Sequence record: MZ234008.1
Source of the DNA: Escherichia phage vB_EcoS-22664B1
DNA: 45,019 nucleotides
Strand: one strand, 5' to 3'
Part shown: one piece after another, positions 1-44,940 of the stretch
Position numbering within the stretch: the stretch's first letter is position 1
Layout: each line of letters opens with the position of its first letter
Notes under the pieces: generated by a model
The model's database searches: none
Told to the model about the DNA's origin: nothing
Seen by the model: the letters and a program-made list of their open reading frames with translations, nothing else
Translations under genes and position numbers: made by a program

Positions 1-74
1 ATGGTGAGTGAAAAATGCAGTTTGCAGTTACAGCAGATAGGGATCGGCTTTTTCATACGCATGATTAATATTGG

Positions 75-103
75 TTGCATTCAGCCTAGCACCCTGCTAG
101 ATT
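75..103 (+). promoter_or_regulatory. putative sigma70-like promoter for left-end genes (-35 TTGCAT, 17-nt spacer, -10 TAGATT) flanked by two TTGGTTGCA copies
   Basis: Motif copies at 71-79 and 102-110; hexamers read directly. Confidence 0.35.
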
Positions 104-131
104 GGTTGCACACCAACATGAGGACTGAACA

Positions 132-10762: not shown

Positions 10763-10791
10763 TTGTGTGTCCTCATTGTTGGTGTGCAACC

Positions 10792-10821
10792 AATATAGTG
10801 CAACCAATACCTGGATTGCAA
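10792..10821 (-). promoter_or_regulatory. putative sigma70-like promoter (-35 TTGCAA, 18-nt spacer with TTGGTTGCA, -10 TATATT) for 9998..10762
   Basis: Read on - strand; same architecture as promoter at 30187-30216 (shared block tatagtgcaaccaa ... ttgcaag ... aattttgc). Confidence 0.4.
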
Positions 10822-16378: not shown

Positions 16379-16720
16379 TGAAGCGGGACAAAACGGGACG
16401 TCCCGCTTTGTCCCGTTTTGTCCCGCCACCTGCAAAACTGCATACCTACTCACTTTCATTGCATAAACTCAAAGCGGGACGAGCGGGACGTCCCGATCCG
16501 TCCCGCCCCCTAAATGTGCATACCTATTCAGATTTCGTGCATAAAACAAACGGGACAGAAAGCGGGACAAACATGGGGCGGGACAAAGCGGGACAGCACC
16601 CCGTCCCCGTCAGTGCTGCCGCGGGTTTCAGCCGATCGGGACAAGCGGGACAAACCCCAGTCTTTCAGACTAGACGGGGGTCAATGGCCCCCCTCGTCTG
16701 AGACTGAATAAGGTTTGTTT
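16378..16720. repeat. non-coding repeat region A: GGGAC palindromes, GCGGGACA iterons, TGCATA(A) repeats and conserved GC hairpin
   Basis: GCGGGACA at 16383, 16562, 16578, 16588, 16645; palindrome centred on GGGACGTCCC near 16397; about 165 bp (16548-16710) is about 85% identical to 44770-44937. Confidence 0.85.
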
Positions 16721-32101: not shown

Positions 32102-32135
32102 AAGATAATGCAACCAATCTAATTACGCAACCAAT

Positions 32136-41144: not shown

Positions 41145-41663
41145 TTAATCTTCTAATTCGAAATAAGTTTCGACGATTGCTTTTAATTCCTGGTGGAACT
41201 CTTCCACGTCGTCATCTTCCAGCTTGGCAACGGATTTAATTTCGAATTCTTCCAGCAGGTCGTCAAATTCGTCGTTTGCGTCGTCGTCATCACCGCCAGC
41301 AATAATAGCGGCATACTGCTTGATTTCGTCGCGCATCTCTTTCAGCGGATCGGCATCTTTCTTGCCTTTACCTTTCGCCGGTGCTTTCTTAGATTTCGCC
41401 GGGGCTTCTTCTTCGTCGTCCGCGTCGTCTTCTTCTACGGCTTCTTTCTTAGCCTTGCCCTTTGCTGGCGCTTTTTTTGTCTTAGCCGGTGCTTCGTCTT
41501 CAGCGTCGTCATCTTCGACTACTTCTTCTTTTGCCTTGCCCTTAGCCGGGGCTTTCTTCGCTTCCTGTTTACCAACGGCAGCGCCAGCAGTTTCATAATG
41601 CTTAGCGATGGTTTCCAGTGCTACTACGCCGCGTGTGATCAGGTTTACGATTTGCTCAAACAT
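41145..41663 (-). CDS. charged-repeat protein (172 aa; repeated DEAPAK-KKAPAKGKAKK modules), first gene of leftward early operon
   Basis: Start MFEQIVNLITRG with GGAGA RBS-like sequence; internal nucleotide repeats 41363-41550 encode alternating acidic/basic modules. Confidence 0.55.
   Translation of the reverse strand: MFEQIVNLITRGVVALETIAKHYETAGAAVGKQEAKKAPAKGKAKEEVVEDDDAEDEAPAKTKKAPAKGKAKKEAVEEDDADDEEEAPAKSKKAPAKGKGKKDADPLKEMRDEIKQYAAIIAGGDDDDANDEFDDLLEEFEIKSVAKLEDDDVEEFHQELKAIVETYFELED
41363..41550. repeat. imperfect tandem repeats (about 66-bp unit, about 2.5 copies) within charged-repeat gene
   Basis: Units containing cttagccggtgcttcgtcttc...gtcgtcatcttc recur; they encode the charged protein repeats. 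Confidence 0.7.
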
Positions 41664-41859
41664 TGTATATCTCCGATTGGTTAAGTTTAGGTGTCGGCAG
41701 TCAACTTCGTCGGTGGCCTTAACATAGTGCCAGGTTACGCGTTCTCCCTTTCGGGTAGTGGACCTGGTTATATAATCACGGTTGGGAATCCTGACACTTC
41801 GATCCGGCCCCTGCGTTGCCCCTCTCCAGTTTGCGTCCTGCATCCTGTCGACGGAGTGA

Positions 41860-41910
41860 ATAATAGATTGGTTGCAGGTGGGGTGTCAACAACTAATTTC
41901 AAAAAAAAAA
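41860..41910 (-). promoter_or_regulatory. putative strong early promoter for leftward operon (-10 TATTAT, 18-nt spacer with TGCAACCAA, -35 TTGACA, upstream A/T tract as UP-like element)
   Basis: On - strand: T10 tract (plus 41901-41910), TTGACA (41889-41884), spacer, TATTAT (41865-41860). Confidence 0.5.
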
Positions 41911-42006
41911 GCGCCGAGGCAAAATGCGACGGCGCTAACCAATAAGAGACAATGAGACGTGATTATTATTACACGCGTGCGCGCCCGTTTCAATATACAA
42001 AAGGAG

Positions 42007-42035
42007 TTGACACCCTGCAATTTTAGGTGTAGTTT
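42007..42035 (+). promoter_or_regulatory. putative sigma70-like promoter (-35 TTGACA, 17-nt spacer, -10 TAGTTT) for HTH regulator and primase-helicase
   Basis: Consensus -35 with 17-nt spacing, divergent from the leftward promoter. Confidence 0.5.
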
Positions 42036-42066
42036 CGTTGGTCATTAACCAATAGGAGACAGAACA

Positions 42067-42396
42067 ATGCATATCAACGACGCAATCGAAATGTTAACTA
42101 AGACCGTTAGTTGTGAGACAAGCCGGTCCTGGGCTTATACCGATGCCGTTGGTGCGGCGTTATTTGAAATCGAACGCCTGCGCAGTGTCGAAAAAGAATT
42201 GCGCGCCAAGCTGGAATTACTCAACGGTACGGCAGCAAGCAAGCTGCAAAAACACAATGAAGAAATGGAAGAATACAAAAAGCAGGTTATCCGTTTACGC
42301 GACGAGGGCAAGTCCTGGGCGATGATTGCCGAGTTGACCGGAATTAATCAGAGCACCGTGCGCTCCTGGGTACGCAATAATAAAACTTCTAAGTAA
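42067..42396 (+). CDS. HTH DNA-binding protein (putative transcriptional regulator)
   Basis: C-terminal helix-turn-helix-like segment SWAMIAELTGINQSTVRSWVRN; coiled-coil-like middle; AGGAGA RBS-like sequence. Confidence 0.55.
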   Translation: MHINDAIEMLTKTVSCETSRSWAYTDAVGAALFEIERLRSVEKELRAKLELLNGTAASKLQKHNEEMEEYKKQVIRLRDEGKSWAMIAELTGINQSTVRSWVRNNKTSK

Positions 42397-42406
42397 GGCA
42401 ACGGCA

Positions 42407-44671
42407 ATGAGCTTAATTAAATTCGCAGTAACAAGACCCGCTAAAAAAGGCGAAAAAGCCAGGGCGGAAAACTTCGAGATGACCACTGATGAGTTTTTCG
42501 AATTTATCAATGATGCGAAAGAAATCTCCTCGGTGCACATCAACAAGACTGAAGATAAAGCCGAGTATGCGCGCCGCAAGCGTAAGGCCGATGGCATCGT
42601 GGCCTATACCAATGATGGGTTACGCCGCAAGACCAGTGCGGTCGACCGCTCGATCCTGTTCTTCGATATTGACCGCACCGACACCCGCACATTACGCCGC
42701 TGCCGTAAAGCGTTCACCGACGCTGGTCTGGAGCATGTATTCCACACCACGACCGGCGACCGTCACCCACTGAAAGGCGGCACACGTTGCGCCCGTTTCC
42801 TGGTGCTCACTGACAAGCCTGTACCGGCTGAAGACCTGGGCCGCGTCCAGTATGCGCTATTAGACCAACTGGGCCTGTCAGATGTGGACTTCGACGATTG
42901 TACGAAAGACACCAACCGCCTTATGTACCTGCCTCACCAGCAGTCTGTCATAAAGTGCCACTATGGAAAGCGCGCCCGTGTCCGTCGTCTGCTTCGCCTG
43001 GCTGACAAGCTGGGAGTGGAGAAAGAGGAAGTGCGCCGCGAACTGACCCAGGGCGCCGATGGCGTGGCGGACGGCATTCTGGATTGGTGCTTCCAGGCTG
43101 GCTTTGAACCACTGTCATCCGGTCGCGGTTATGAAGTGCCTTGCCCGAACGAGCACCTGCATAGCGGCGGCGGGTCGACGGCTATCATGGTTAAGGATGG
43201 CGAGATCCGTTTCAAGTGTATGCACACCGGCAACGAATGCTGTTCCGAACTGAATAAACACCAGCACCTGGCGTTACGTCTGATTGGTATCCCGGACCAC
43301 TTGAACGTCGAGCCACACAACATGTCACGCAAGCAAATCGCCGCCATCCTTCCGGGACTGGACGACGAGGAAGTGGAATCGTGCTATGAACATATTGTTG
43401 ATGCGGTCGGAGACGGCGACGAGTACGGCGAATGCACCGACGCTGACCTGGACAACGAGCCGGTCGCTCTGTTCAGTAAGCACGACCCGATTATCGAAGG
43501 CCTGGTCAACTTCAAATCTACCTGGTATATGGCGGGTGAGTCGAACATTGGTAAGTCGTTCTACGTGCTGGGCCAGATGGGCGCTGTTGCCGCGGGGATT
43601 CCGTTCGGTGGCGCGAAGGTCGTCCAGTCGCATTGCTTCTATTTCGATGCGGAAGGTGGCGAAGCCTCCAACCAGCGTAAGGAAGCATTGCAGATTAAAT
43701 ACGAGCACGACCTCGACAAGCTGCACATTATCGACCTGCAATCACGCGGCTGGGATATTACCAGCAAGTCAGGCTTGCGCGAGGTTATCAGCTTTATCAA
43801 CCGCACCGCTAACGGGGAGCCGGTTGGCCTGGTGGCCTTCGACTCACTCAACCAGACTGTAGCGCTGCGGTCCGCTGATGCCAAACCGTTCGACGAGAAC
43901 AACGCAAGCGATATGGGTGAAGTGGTCAAAGCGCTGAAGTCCATTGCGGAAAATACAGGCGGCAGTGCGGGCGTCATCCATCACCCGGCTAAGGGTGCAA
44001 ACGGCAGCAGATCCCCACGCGGGTCCGGCGCGCTTCATGGTGCTGTCGATTCTGCGTTCTTCCTGGAACAGCCGGACGATAATCAGCCAGGCCAACTCAA
44101 CCTGTATCACGAAAAATCCCGTAACGGCATCAAGCAAGCGCCGCGTGGCTTCGTCCTGCTCAAGTGCAAGGTTAAGGTGGATCTCCGCAAGTCTGATGCG
44201 TTCGAAGCCCACCAATCCACCAGCACCGGGCCAGACTTCGGTGATGTGGTTGCCGGTTGGGACGTCAAGCCAATTGCATCTACACCACGCGACGAGACTC
44301 TTTACCTCGTACCGGTCGCCCTGGCACCGTTCGCTATCGAACAGGCTAAGGCAGCAGGCAAGGCAGCAGTTAAGGAAGAGAACACCGCCGGACCGCGCAA
44401 CGAGAAAGAGAAGGTGCTTTATGCGGCACTGGAAAAACTGATGGAAGATAACCCGGACCATACTGGATTCAGTAAATCGGCAATTGTCCGCCAGGCTGGA
44501 CTTGCGAAAGGTGGCACATCGACGAAGGCAATTGACGATATGGTGGAGCGCGGCGTGCTCGGGTTTTATACAGATCCACACACCGGGGCCATCTATGGGT
44601 CGTCGAATCTGGTCATCAAATCGGATATACCCATCACGCTTTCAGCGACCGATGATGACTTAAAAGATTAA
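42407..44671 (+). CDS. DNA primase/helicase (N-terminal primase-like domain, C-terminal RecA/DnaB-like ATPase)
   Basis: N-terminal acidic motif LFFDIDRTD; C-terminal Walker A GESNIGKS and Walker B-like LVAFDSLN, plus HHPAKG; 754 aa. Confidence 0.75.
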   Translation: MSLIKFAVTRPAKKGEKARAENFEMTTDEFFEFINDAKEISSVHINKTEDKAEYARRKRKADGIVAYTNDGLRRKTSAVDRSILFFDIDRTDTRTLRRCRKAFTDAGLEHVFHTTTGDRHPLKGGTRCARFLVLTDKPVPAEDLGRVQYALLDQLGLSDVDFDDCTKDTNRLMYLPHQQSVIKCHYGKRARVRRLLRLADKLGVEKEEVRRELTQGADGVADGILDWCFQAGFEPLSSGRGYEVPCPNEHLHSGGGSTAIMVKDGEIRFKCMHTGNECCSELNKHQHLALRLIGIPDHLNVEPHNMSRKQIAAILPGLDDEEVESCYEHIVDAVGDGDEYGECTDADLDNEPVALFSKHDPIIEGLVNFKSTWYMAGESNIGKSFYVLGQMGAVAAGIPFGGAKVVQSHCFYFDAEGGEASNQRKEALQIKYEHDLDKLHIIDLQSRGWDITSKSGLREVISFINRTANGEPVGLVAFDSLNQTVALRSADAKPFDENNASDMGEVVKALKSIAENTGGSAGVIHHPAKGANGSRSPRGSGALHGAVDSAFFLEQPDDNQPGQLNLYHEKSRNGIKQAPRGFVLLKCKVKVDLRKSDAFEAHQSTSTGPDFGDVVAGWDVKPIASTPRDETLYLVPVALAPFAIEQAKAAGKAAVKEENTAGPRNEKEKVLYAALEKLMEDNPDHTGFSKSAIVRQAGLAKGGTSTKAIDDMVERGVLGFYTDPHTGAIYGSSNLVIKSDIPITLSATDDDLKD

Positions 44672-44759
44672 ATTTTGCGCGCATTGGTTGCCATTTTGAG
44701 TGTTTTTAGCTGGTCGCATTGGTTGCCGTGTAGTGTAAATATAGTGAATAGTTATGCAG

Positions 44760-44940
44760 TTTTATTGCATAAAGTAAGCGGGACAAAAAGCGGGACAGAC
44801 AGGGGGCGGGACAAGGCGGGACAGCACCCCCGTCCCGCCCCGGATTACGCGGCTTGCGGGGGAGCGGGACAGGCGGGACAAACCCCAGTCTTTCAGACTA
44901 GACGGGGGTCAGTTGGCCCCCTCGTCTGAGACTGCATAAA
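44760..44940. repeat. non-coding repeat region B: GCGGGACA iterons, inverted GGGAC and conserved GC hairpin (homologous to 16548-16710)
   Basis: GCGGGACA at 44778, 44789, 44806, 44816, 44864, 44873; the 3' 60 nt is nearly identical to region A. Confidence 0.85.

What the first reader, a model, noticed from the sequence alone, without database searches (positions are those of the whole stretch)
41860..42035. Divergent early promoter pair separating the leftward replication operon from the rightward regulator/primase operon
Within about 180 bp lie a consensus-like leftward promoter (TTGACA, 18-nt spacer, TATTAT, preceded by a T10 tract acting as a possible UP element) and a rightward promoter (TTGACA, 17-nt spacer, TAGTTT). 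A 6-bp GC hairpin (41911-41935) sits between them and a motif copy is inside the leftward spacer. This is the likely early control region and a natural target for the downstream HTH protein.
Basis: seen in the sequence. Interest (0 to 1): 0.4.

Follow-up and report, generated by a model that had tools for sequence, protein, structure and literature searches.

The report
Phage early promoters plus hidden small RNA
The flagged stretch is the genuine, already-annotated early control region of a Dhillonvirus coliphage, but it holds three promoters rather than two: the "hairpin + T10" looks like the terminator of a probable ~56-nt small RNA, and the leftward promoter drives a conserved, undescribed structured leader RNA.

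Summary
The window is a Dhillonvirus (HK578/SO-1-like) genome.

- **PL** (41889-41860, minus strand; TTGACA-18-TATTAT) is the best sigma-70 match in the whole window.
- **PR** (42007-42035; TTGACA-17-TAGTTT) has a weak -10. Its hexamers and 17-nt spacing are kept in 18 relatives while the spacer sequence drifts.
- **A third promoter, Ps**, was missed (41993-41965, minus strand; TTGAAA-17-TGT-AATAAT). It fires into the hairpin.
- **The hairpin plus T10**, read on the minus strand, is an intrinsic terminator. It has two compensatory pair swaps, and two substitutions that give G.U on the minus strand but A.C on the plus strand.

Ps plus this terminator define a candidate ~56-nt sRNA. Its invariant 5' tail is complementary to the ribosome-binding regions of the first gene of both divergent operons. 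This is inferred, not shown.

The "motif copy" in the PL spacer is GCAACCAAT. It is one of 15 exact copies, and 13 of 13 mappable copies are kept in a genome only 80% identical.

PL transcribes a ~160-nt structured leader RNA with no Rfam match. It is shared by several phage genera and has strong covariation.

The promoters are ordinary and already annotated in the HK578 GenBank record. The sRNA and leader RNA are new leads.

The parts
41860..41889 (-). PL, the leftward early sigma-70 promoter: -35 TTGACA at 41889-41884, 18-nt spacer, -10 TATTAT at 41865-41860. Predicted start is near G41852.
   Evidence: 11/12, the best match in the window. In relatives the -35 is TTGAC(A/T), the -10 is TATTAT, TAATAT or TATCAT, and the spacer is 17-18 nt. 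Annotated as 'promoter' in the HK578 record.
41867..41875 (-). GCAACCAAT motif copy filling positions about -13 to -21 of PL. Candidate operator.
   Evidence: Invariant in 18 relatives. One of 15 exact copies in the window. 13 of 13 mappable copies are retained in LM40P1, which is about 80% identical genome-wide.
41901..41910 (-). T10 tract. It is the U-tail of the minus-strand terminator and lies at about -47 to -56 of PL, so an UP-like side role is possible.
   Evidence: The only T run of 8 or more in the window. Its length varies from 8 to 14 in relatives.
41910..41936 (-). Terminator hairpin: a 7-bp outer stem AGCGCCG/CGGCGCU, a 2x2 internal loop, a 3-bp inner stem and a UUU loop.
   Evidence: Fold of -17 kcal/mol, z = -4.0. 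160/160 cells paired in 16 distinct sequences. Two pairs are swapped on both sides (G-C to U-A; G-C to C-G) and one A-U becomes G.U. On the plus strand that last change would be A.C.
41901..41958 (-). Candidate small RNA (about 56-58 nt): 5'-GUCUCAUUGUCUCUUAUUGGUUA, then the terminator hairpin, then the U-tail.
   Evidence: Promoter plus terminator anatomy. The invariant block starts exactly at the predicted +1, 7 nt after the -10, while the stretch between -10 and +1 is variable and carries indels. No Rfam family matches.
41965..41993 (-). Ps, the promoter of the candidate sRNA: -35 TTGAAA at 41993-41988, 17-nt spacer, TGT-AATAAT at 41970-41965 (extended -10).
   Evidence: 10/12 with TG. The hexamers are invariant or nearly so in 28 variants. 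Annotated as 'promoter' in the HK578 record.
41952..42026 (+). Small plus-strand ORF (24 codons) behind the middle TAACCAAT-AAGAGACA box. Judged not to be a gene.
   Evidence: Among relatives its middle is read in two different frames (YYYTRARPFQY vs LLLHACAPVSI) and its ends and length differ from 19 to 31 aa. No plus-strand promoter lies upstream.
42007..42035 (+). PR, the rightward early promoter: TTGACA, 17-nt spacer, TAGTTT. Predicted start is about 42041-42044.
   Evidence: 9/12. The -35 is invariant. The -10 is TAGTTT, or TAGTAT in HK578 and CHD5UKE2. The spacer is always 17 nt while its sequence varies, and conservation ends right after the -10 in HK578-type phages. Annotated in the HK578 record.
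42038..42052 (.). Palindrome TTGGT-N5-ACCAA across the PR start site. Candidate operator. It overlaps the ribosome-site box of the HTH gene.
   Evidence: Three exact copies in the window (102, 10779, 42038), where a 10-base palindrome is expected about 0.04 times. It is GTTGGT-N5-ACCAAC in most relatives and absent in HK578-type phages.
42046..42061 (+). Ribosome-site box TAACCAATAGGAGACA of the HTH gene (ATG at 42067). Best predicted trans target of the sRNA tail.
   Evidence: Three boxes in the window against 0.02 expected. Duplex energy of -23.1 kcal/mol, the best of 61 start regions and the best non-self site in the whole window.
42067..42396 (+). 109-aa protein with a coiled-coil N-terminus and a C-terminal HTH. 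First gene of the rightward operon. The primase-helicase starts at 42407.
   Evidence: Pfam HTH_23, HTH_28 and Sigma70_r4_2. phrog_9366. HK578 carries a diverged homologue with the same HTH.
41670..41853 (-). Structured 5' leader RNA of the PL transcript (core about 41852-41693) with its tail ACC-N-UUAACCAAU-SD.
   Evidence: Covariance model R1 scores 199 bits, with a single copy in the window. 96.8-99.5% of cells are paired against 25-49% in slid controls, and 10-11 pairs are changed on both sides. No Rfam hit at E<=10.
41668..41683 (-). Ribosome-site box TAACCAATCGGAGATA of the first leftward gene (ATG at 41663-41661). Second predicted sRNA target.
   Evidence: Duplex energy of -17.9 kcal/mol, rank 5 of 61. 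The box is conserved in long- and short-leader Dhillonviruses.

Best explanation
This is the host-RNA-polymerase (sigma-70) early control region of a Dhillonvirus. It holds three transcription units.

1. PR (start about 42042) transcribes the HTH regulator and the primase-helicase rightward.
2. Ps (start about 41958) lies back-to-back with PR and fires leftward. It makes a ~56-nt RNA that ends at the hairpin plus U10 intrinsic terminator at 41936-41901.
3. PL (start about 41852) lies immediately downstream of that terminator. It transcribes a ~160-nt structured leader RNA and then the leftward DNA-metabolism operon.

Shown by sequence and comparison: the three promoter-like sites, the terminator structure with its strand preference, the non-coding nature of the middle segment, the leader RNA structure, and the selected GCAACCAAT motif.

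Inferred: the short RNA is a regulator. Its single-stranded, invariant 5' tail (an anti-Shine-Dalgarno CUCU plus AUUGGUUA) would pair with the UUAACCAAU-N-GGAGA ribosome sites of the first gene of each operon. That would damp their translation as the RNA accumulates.

Also inferred: a phage DNA-binding protein, most simply the HTH protein, binds GCAACCAAT in the PL spacer and the TTGGT-N5-ACCAA palindrome at the PR start to shut early transcription down.
For: Promoters:
- Searches give the rank of the sites within the window.
- Searches show hexamers and spacing conserved while spacers drift.
- One search shows the same three sites annotated as promoters in HK578.
- Searches show the same divergent layout in distant primase relatives.

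Terminator and sRNA:
- One search gives the fold (z = -4): a 5' single-stranded tail, a hairpin and a U10.
- One search shows 100% pairing and two double swaps.
- Searches show two substitutions that give G.U on the minus strand but A.C on the plus strand (the L013 clade inner stem; Opt212 and Lh1M).
- One search shows this is the only T run of 8 or more in the window, and that the plus-strand ORF is frame-shifted among relatives.
- One search shows the invariant block beginning at the predicted +1.
- One search shows the cassette in all 154 Dhillonvirus records matched.

Targets:
- One search shows three boxes against 0.02 expected.
- One search shows the HTH start region is the best of 61 (-23.1 against a mean of -12.2, sd 3.8), and at most 4 of 2000 shuffled tails do as well.
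- One search shows -16 to -22 kcal/mol in relatives.

Operators:
-.
Against: - There are no transcript data for any Dhillonvirus in the searchable literature, so no start site or RNA has been observed.
- The hairpin covariation comes from essentially one diverged clade, so it represents few independent events.
- The sRNA-target pairing shows no compensatory co-variation.
- In most relatives the HTH ribosome site has drifted. Perfect pairing is seen only in the window/WFI type.
- HK578-type phages keep the sRNA but have a different rightward ribosome site (-14 to -16 kcal/mol).
- The L013 clade pairs more weakly with its own leftward site (-13.4).
- Any CUCU-containing RNA pairs with Shine-Dalgarno sequences to some degree.
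- PR has a poor -10 (3/6).
- Nothing links the HTH protein to the DNA motifs. HK578-type phages keep GCAACCAAT at PL but lack the PR palindrome.
Confidence: 0.6

Rival explanations
1. Plain two-promoter reading. PL and PR are the only relevant promoters. The T10 is an UP element for PL. The hairpin and the sequence up to PR are spacer or operator DNA with no RNA product.
For: - PL and PR are real by conservation.
- The T tract sits at about -47 to -56 of PL, where the distal UP subsite lies. This rests on established knowledge of UP elements, not on a test here.
- The segment GAAATTAGTTG between the T tract and the -35 is invariant.
Against: - It ignores a 10/12 promoter with an extended -10, with invariant hexamers, that points into the hairpin.
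- It does not explain the compensatory stem changes or the minus-strand-specific G.U changes.
- It does not explain why the 23 nt between the hairpin and the Ps start are invariant while the Ps discriminator region is free to vary.
Confidence: 0.12
2. Ps is an upstream second promoter of the leftward operon, and the hairpin plus U10 is a regulated attenuator, as in a lambda PL-nutL-tL1-like arrangement. The short RNA would then be only the terminated leader, and read-through would be controlled by a phage or host factor. The tail contains GUCUCUUA, which resembles the boxA core GCUCUUA.
For: - Ps and PL are arranged in tandem.
- The leftward operon has several predicted internal terminators in the WFI annotation.
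- The boxA resemblance is seen directly in the sequence.
- boxA recognition by NusB-NusE is described in PMC3177189 (listed; only its abstract was read).
Against: - The strongest promoter of the genome, PL, lies directly after the terminator, which makes a read-through route redundant.
- A 7-bp GC stem with 8-14 U is a strong terminator.
- The boxA match is 6-7 nt with one mismatch, and no boxB-like hairpin separate from the terminator exists.
- No N-like protein was identified.
Confidence: 0.13
3. The middle box plus ATG (41936-41954) starts a translated 24-codon leader peptide on the plus strand. Its translation would regulate the rightward operon.
For: The same extended ribosome-site box precedes an ATG three times, and the ORF is open in all relatives at 19-31 codons.
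Against: - Among relatives the central 11 codons are read in two different frames, and the C-termini differ.
- No plus-strand promoter scoring 9/12 or better lies upstream.
- The conserved DNA under the ORF is exactly the Ps promoter.
Confidence: 0.04

Closest known systems
Divergent early promoters with an adjacent small regulator gene in lambdoid and other temperate or virulent phages (lambda PL/PR-cro type layout)
   Same: Host sigma-70 promoters fire in opposite directions from one short intergenic region. The first rightward gene is a small HTH protein, and replication genes lie downstream. Distant relatives of this phage (primase 37-45% identical) have a compact back-to-back pair with a Cro-like gene.
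   Different: There is no repressor gene, no tripartite operators and no immunity function, and the phage is virulent. The candidate operators (GCAACCAAT; TTGGT-N5-ACCAA) are dispersed over about 15 sites in the genome rather than confined to this region.
Small phage antisense RNAs that mask a ribosome site: P22 sar and lambda OOP (from own knowledge), and the P1/P4/N15 C4-type RNAs (Rfam C4)
   Same: A short (~56-70 nt) untranslated RNA with its own constitutive-looking promoter and an intrinsic terminator. It lies inside an early control region and carries a stretch complementary to a Shine-Dalgarno region.
   Different: - sar and OOP are cis-antisense to an overlapping mRNA. Here no plus-strand transcript is predicted across the gene, so action would be in trans on two similar sites 90 and 270 nt away.
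- There is no Rfam C4 match or any other Rfam match.
- No experimental evidence exists.
HK022 put RNA, a cis-acting, protein-independent antitermination RNA (PMC9378689)
   Same: The PL leader RNA, like putL, begins within a few nucleotides of the start of an early promoter. It sits at the head of a long operon with internal terminators, and it is conserved independently of the downstream gene.
   Different: put is about 70 nt with two stem-loops. This RNA is about 160 nt with five helices and shows no sequence similarity. An antitermination function is a guess. Some Dhillonviruses lack the element.
Dispersed intergenic repeats of T1-like phages (the TLS 21-nt repeat, compared by its authors to L5 'stoperators'; PMC11447400)
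   Same: A short phage-specific motif is repeated 15-20 times, mostly between genes, with no known binding protein.
   Different: The sequence is different (GCAACCAAT). It occurs in both orientations relative to transcription and often as pairs 14-35 bp apart. TLS repeats are co-oriented with transcription and lie about 76 nt upstream of start codons.

Membership tests
Sigma-70 promoter (PL, Ps, PR) | -35 and -10 hexamers close to TTGACA/TATAAT with a 16-18 nt spacer | tested here: met
   PL 11/12 (spacer 18), Ps 10/12 with TG (spacer 17), PR 9/12 (spacer 17, -10 only 3/6).
Sigma-70 promoter (PL, Ps, PR) | Hexamers and spacing conserved among relatives while spacer and flanks vary | tested here: met
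   Alignments A1, A2 and A6.
Sigma-70 promoter (PL, Ps, PR) | Transcription actually starts 6-8 nt downstream of the -10 | not testable with these tools
   No transcript data. No Dhillonvirus transcriptome was found.
Intrinsic (Rho-independent) terminator, minus strand | GC-rich stem-loop directly followed by a U tract on the transcribed strand | tested here: met
   A 7-bp stem (6 G-C) plus an inner stem, then U10 on the minus strand. The plus strand has no T tract after the stem. The tool's scan missed it because of the internal loop.
Intrinsic (Rho-independent) terminator, minus strand | Pairing maintained by compensatory change | tested here: met
   160/160 cells paired and 2 pairs changed on both sides, but from one clade only.
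UP element of PL | A/T-rich tract at -40 to -60 that raises promoter activity through the alpha-CTD | tested here: inconclusive
   The position and composition fit (T10 at about -47 to -56). The activity cannot be tested, and the tract is also the terminator tail.
Rfam C4 antisense RNA and all other Rfam 15 families | Match to the family covariance model | tested here: not met
   Nothing reaches the gathering score in the window. At E<=10 there are only sub-threshold hits that pick up the terminator.
Trans-acting anti-Shine-Dalgarno sRNA | Single-stranded seed complementary to the target ribosome sites | tested here: met
   The 5' 22 nt are unpaired in the fold. Seed pairing is 16/16 (one G.U) with the HTH site and 15/16 (two G.U) with the leftward site. 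Ranks are 1 and 5 of 61.
Trans-acting anti-Shine-Dalgarno sRNA | Seed-target complementarity preserved or co-varying in relatives | tested here: inconclusive
   Energies stay above background (-16 to -22 kcal/mol), but there are no compensatory changes and pairing is weaker in the L013 and HK578 types.
Trans-acting anti-Shine-Dalgarno sRNA | The RNA exists and changes target expression | not testable with these tools
   Needs a Northern blot or RNA-seq, and reporter fusions.
HK022 put-type antitermination RNA (for the PL leader) | About 70 nt, two stem-loops, sequence similarity to putL/putR | tested here: not met
   The leader is about 160 nt with five helices. The put description comes from PMC9378689.
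HK022 put-type antitermination RNA (for the PL leader) | Suppresses downstream terminators in cis | not testable with these tools
   Only positional evidence: the element is promoter-proximal at the head of long operons.
Protein-coding small ORF (41952-42026) | Reading frame and peptide conserved | tested here: not met
   Two frames are used across relatives and the ends vary.

The most novel reading that the evidence does not exclude
The region encodes two undescribed regulatory RNAs that work together.

1. A promoter-proximal ~160-nt leader RNA shared by several phage genera. It would act in cis on RNA polymerase or the transcript (put-like antitermination or stabilisation) and would end in a conserved UUAACCAA-SD tail.
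2. A Dhillonvirus-specific ~56-nt trans-acting RNA. Its invariant tail would mask that tail and the matching ribosome site of the HTH regulator, giving an RNA-based timer for both early operons of a virulent phage.
Probability: 0.15. Interest if true: 0.7.

Novelty: new member of a known kind. Interest (0 to 1): 0.45.

Why it matters
The promoters themselves are textbook. They were already marked in the HK578 GenBank record, so the finding as written adds little.

The region becomes more useful once the hairpin is read on the correct strand. That gives a concrete, cheaply testable candidate small RNA that is conserved in every Dhillonvirus examined. Small RNAs of virulent coliphages are very poorly known.

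The region also leads to a covariation-supported structured RNA with no Rfam match. It sits at the very start of early or late operons in at least six phage genera. A third lead is a 15-site DNA motif under clear selection.

Dhillonviruses are widely used: they are in the BASEL collection, in defence-system studies such as SECphi4/18, and among therapy candidates. A map of their early control signals therefore has practical value for engineering and for interpreting infection time courses.

Tried and rejected
- **Rfam.** The whole window at gathering score and the region at E<=10 gave no family. The sub-threshold hits only recognise a generic terminator.
- **Small plus-strand ORF.** Rejected as a gene.
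- **Literature.** No Dhillonvirus transcriptome, promoter mapping or sRNA was found. The element sequences do not occur in any held paper. One search was badly framed and uninformative. The KpAvs2/Ksap1 paper concerns a different locus.
- **Genome-contig scan with a 16-mer of the leader RNA.** This returned 120+ hits. The covariance model showed that 79 of the 80 loci tested were chance matches. Only L140 was real, and it is a 42.7-kb, probably phage, contig binned as a Cereibacter MAG. The scan was poorly chosen.
- **PDB sequence search with the HTH protein.** Only generic HTH similarity.
- **GenBank label 'DNA recombination nuclease inhibitor gamma'.** Relatives attach it to either flanking gene, but Pfam and PHROGs give no support.
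- **GCAACCAAT as a fixed promoter element.** Rejected. There is no consistent -10 at a fixed distance, and both orientations occur relative to transcription.
- **Host targets of the sRNA.** Not searched. Matches of 11-12 nt in a 5-Mb genome are expected by chance.
- **boxA/nut reading of the sRNA tail.** Kept only as a minor rival.

Full report
**Identity and context**

The window is a near-complete Dhillonvirus genome of the HK578/SO-1 group. The 1-kb stretch around the finding is 99.9% identical to Escherichia phage vB_EcoS-101114B2, 99.6% to vB_EcoS_WFI and about 92% to Sodalis phage SO-1.

The gene layout comes from the WFI annotation (mapped) and from Pfam and PHROGs.

- **Leftward operon.** It starts at the ATG at 41663 on the minus strand and runs to about 28950. 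It encodes an acidic protein of unknown function (phrog_3127), a DUF2800/PD-(D/E)XK nuclease, an Enc34-type ssDNA-binding protein, DNA polymerase I, an SNF2-type helicase and a methylase.
- **Rightward operon.** It starts with a 109-aa protein at 42067-42396. This protein has a coiled-coil N-terminus and a C-terminal HTH (HTH_23, HTH_28, Sigma70_r4_2). The primase-helicase follows 10 nt later, at 42407-44671.

**Check of the observation**

Every element is present at or within a base or two of the stated coordinates.

- PL is TTGACA (41889-41884), an 18-nt spacer and TATTAT (41865-41860) on the minus strand. It matches 11/12 and is the best site in the whole window on either strand. Only five sites reach 10/12.
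- PR is TTGACA (42007-42012), a 17-nt spacer and TAGTTT (42030-42035). It matches 9/12 with only 3/6 in the -10, so it fell below the tool's listing rule.
- Both -35 boxes lie in a perfect 10-nt inverted repeat, GTTGACACCC. Its 9-mer occurs nowhere else in the window.
- The A/T run is 10 bases (41901-41910) and is the only run of 8 or more in the window.
- The hairpin is as described, but it extends to 41910-41936 with an inner 3-bp stem.

**Comparative evidence for the promoters**

The 196-bp core is found in 154 phage records, all Dhillonvirus-like, at 84% identity or more. I aligned 16, 18 and 28 distinct versions drawn from IMG/VR, GenBank and metagenomes.

- **PL.** The -35 is TTGAC(A/T). 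The -10 is TATTAT, TAATAT or TATCAT. The spacer is 17 or 18 nt, and its promoter-distal half is variable.
- **PR.** The -35 is invariant. The -10 is TAGTTT, or TAGTAT in HK578 and CHD5UKE2. The spacer is always 17 nt although its sequence changes. In HK578-type phages homology stops just after the -10.

This is the conservation signature of real promoters. The HK578 GenBank record already annotates three 'promoter' features that map onto 41862-41888 (-), 41964-41992 (-) and 42005-42031 (+) of the window. The promoter pair is therefore not new.

Distant relatives whose primase is only 37-45% identical have the same leftward gene, divergent promoters, small HTH gene and primase layout. Their version is compact, with no insert between the promoters.

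**The third promoter and the terminator**

The scan also finds TTGAAA (41993-41988), a 17-nt spacer and TGT-AATAAT (41970-41965) on the minus strand. It scores 10/12 and is the only strong site with an extended -10. It points at the hairpin.

On the minus strand the hairpin is followed by U10. That is the anatomy of an intrinsic terminator. On the plus strand no T tract follows the stem.

The predicted transcript runs from about 41958 to 41901. It folds into a 22-nt unpaired 5' tail, the hairpin and the U tail, at -17 kcal/mol with z = -4.0.

Across 16 distinct versions all 160 stem cells are paired.

- The L013/LM40P1 clade changes two pairs on both sides (G-C to U-A; G-C to C-G).
- The same clade turns an inner A-U into G.U.
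- Opt212 and Lh1M carry a change that adds a G.U on the minus strand.

On the plus strand these last two changes would be A.C mismatches, so the RNA strand that matters is the minus strand. The caveat is that the double changes come from one clade.

The segment between the -10 and the predicted +1 is the most variable part of the region and contains indels. Invariance begins exactly at G41958, 7 nt after the -10.

The plus-strand 24-codon ORF that starts behind the middle box is not a gene. Its centre is read in two different frames in different phages, and its ends vary.

Ps plus the terminator are therefore best read as a small RNA gene. No Rfam family matches it.

**What the RNA might do (inference)**

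The box TAACCAAT-R-GAGACA occurs three times in the window against 0.02 expected. One copy is antisense to the RNA's own tail. One lies at the ribosome site of the HTH gene (42046-42061). A third, with two mismatches, lies at the ribosome site of the first leftward gene (41683-41668).

- Against 61 annotated start regions, the tail pairs best with the HTH gene (-23.1 kcal/mol). The leftward gene ranks fifth (-17.9). The mean is -12.2 with sd 3.8.
- The HTH site is also the best non-self site anywhere in the window.
- At most 4 of 2000 shuffled tails do as well.
- In relatives the energies remain at -16 to -22 kcal/mol.

Against this, there is no compensatory co-variation. HK578-type phages have a different rightward site, and the L013 clade pairs more weakly. 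I therefore rate production of the RNA at about 0.7 and the proposed targets at about 0.35.

An attenuator reading is a minor rival: Ps as an upstream operon promoter, with a boxA-like GUCUCUUA in the tail.

**The T tract**

Its position, about -47 to -56 of PL, is compatible with an UP-like role, and the 11 nt between it and the -35 are invariant. The two roles are not exclusive. Only the terminator role has comparative support here.

**The DNA motif**

The 'motif copy' in the PL spacer is GCAACCAAT (41875-41867). The window has 15 exact copies, mostly between genes. They occur in both orientations, often as pairs 14-35 bp apart, and five lie in the 480-bp gap after the primase gene.

In LM40P1, which is about 80% identical genome-wide, 13 of 13 mappable copies are retained. 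Chance retention is about 13% per site. An unrelated phage has none.

A TTGGT-N5-ACCAA palindrome occurs exactly three times, and one copy spans the PR start at 42038-42052. These positions, within a promoter spacer and at +1, are typical for repressor sites.

The HTH protein is the obvious candidate, and its HTH is conserved even in the diverged HK578 homologue. Nothing ties it to the motif, however. HK578-type phages lack the PR palindrome.

The nearest published analogy is the set of dispersed 21-nt repeats of phage TLS and other T1-like phages, whose function is also unknown (PMC11447400).

**The PL leader RNA**

PL does not sit next to its gene. A 190-nt leader intervenes.

Its core (41852-41693) matches intergenic DNA of unrelated genera at 73-86% identity: Warwickvirus, Changchunvirus, Murrayvirus, Sortsnevirus, Jilinvirus-like phages and another Drexlerviridae member.

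Read on the transcribed strand, it has invariant blocks such as CAGGAUUCCCAACCGUGA and GAGGCUACCGACGAAG, and five helices.

- On a MAFFT alignment 96.8% of cells pair, against 25-49% when partners are slid. Eleven pairs change on both sides.
- On a model-fitted alignment of 21 viral hits the figure is 99.5%.
- Many pairs alternate between G-C and G.U, which fixes the strand.
- One hairpin is capped by GAAA or GCAA loops.

There is one copy in the window. There is no Rfam match and no mention in the held literature.

In every genus the element lies just after a -10-like sequence, at the start of a transcription unit. In IME279 it heads the 22-kb structural operon. The downstream genes are unrelated between genera. 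It is followed by ACC-N3-5-UUAACCAA and a Shine-Dalgarno sequence, so the leftward ribosome-site box belongs to this shared module.

Some Dhillonviruses (L001, L004, L008, L013) lack the core and keep only its two ends.

Its position suggests a cis-acting role such as put-like antitermination (PMC9378689) or 5' stabilisation. It does not resemble put in size or structure, and its function is open.

**Verdict**

It mis-assigns the hairpin and T10 and misses the third promoter.

The promoters are ordinary and already annotated. The added value lies in three leads:

- a genus-wide candidate small RNA;
- a selected 15-site DNA motif that touches PL, with a related palindrome at the PR start;
- an undescribed structured leader RNA family.

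Noticed in passing
window 41670-41853 (minus strand); also L046-L054, L059, L060, L063, L069, L071, L076, L140: A ~160-nt structured RNA at the 5' end of the PL transcript. It has no Rfam match and is shared by at least six phage genera. Covariation is strong (11 pairs changed on both sides), and it is always promoter-proximal with unrelated downstream genes. Its function is unknown; a put-like or stabilising role is a guess.
   Followed up: partly
window 70-109, 635, 3297, 10786-10808, 26908, 30206, 32110-32135, 35068, 41867, 44683-44726, 44999: GCAACCAAT occurs 15 times exactly, mostly between genes and often in pairs. Five copies lie in the gap between the primase gene and the next gene. 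13 of 13 mappable copies are conserved in a genome only 80% identical. The binding protein and the function are unknown.
   Followed up: partly
L017 2884-2975 (and L018, L019, L023, L025 at the equivalent place): Distant relatives have a minus-strand intrinsic terminator (8-bp stem plus T8-9) between the Cro-like gene and the primase gene. A possible TTGCAT-16-GATAAT promoter lies inside the first primase codons. Together these would give a ~70-nt RNA antisense to the primase ribosome site, a possible parallel to the Dhillonvirus small RNA.
   Followed up: partly
window 44744-44939 and 16538-16711: A repeat of about 175-195 bp, roughly 83% identical through WFI. One copy lies in the non-coding stretch after the primase gene. 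The other lies between the tail chaperone and tape-measure genes.
   Followed up: no
window 41145-41663 and 42067-42396 (annotations of relatives): GenBank records of relatives label one or the other of these genes 'DNA recombination nuclease inhibitor gamma', 'transposase' or 'resolvase'. Pfam and PHROGs support only an HTH domain for the 109-aa protein and nothing for the 172-aa acidic, KKAPAKGK-repeat protein.
   Followed up: partly
window 41690-41852 compared with L001, L004, L008, L013: Short-leader Dhillonviruses keep the first 9 nt or so and the last 20 nt or so of the leader and replace the core with a 13-nt GC hairpin. This looks like a clean deletion, or insertion, of the RNA element within one genus.
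   Followed up: no
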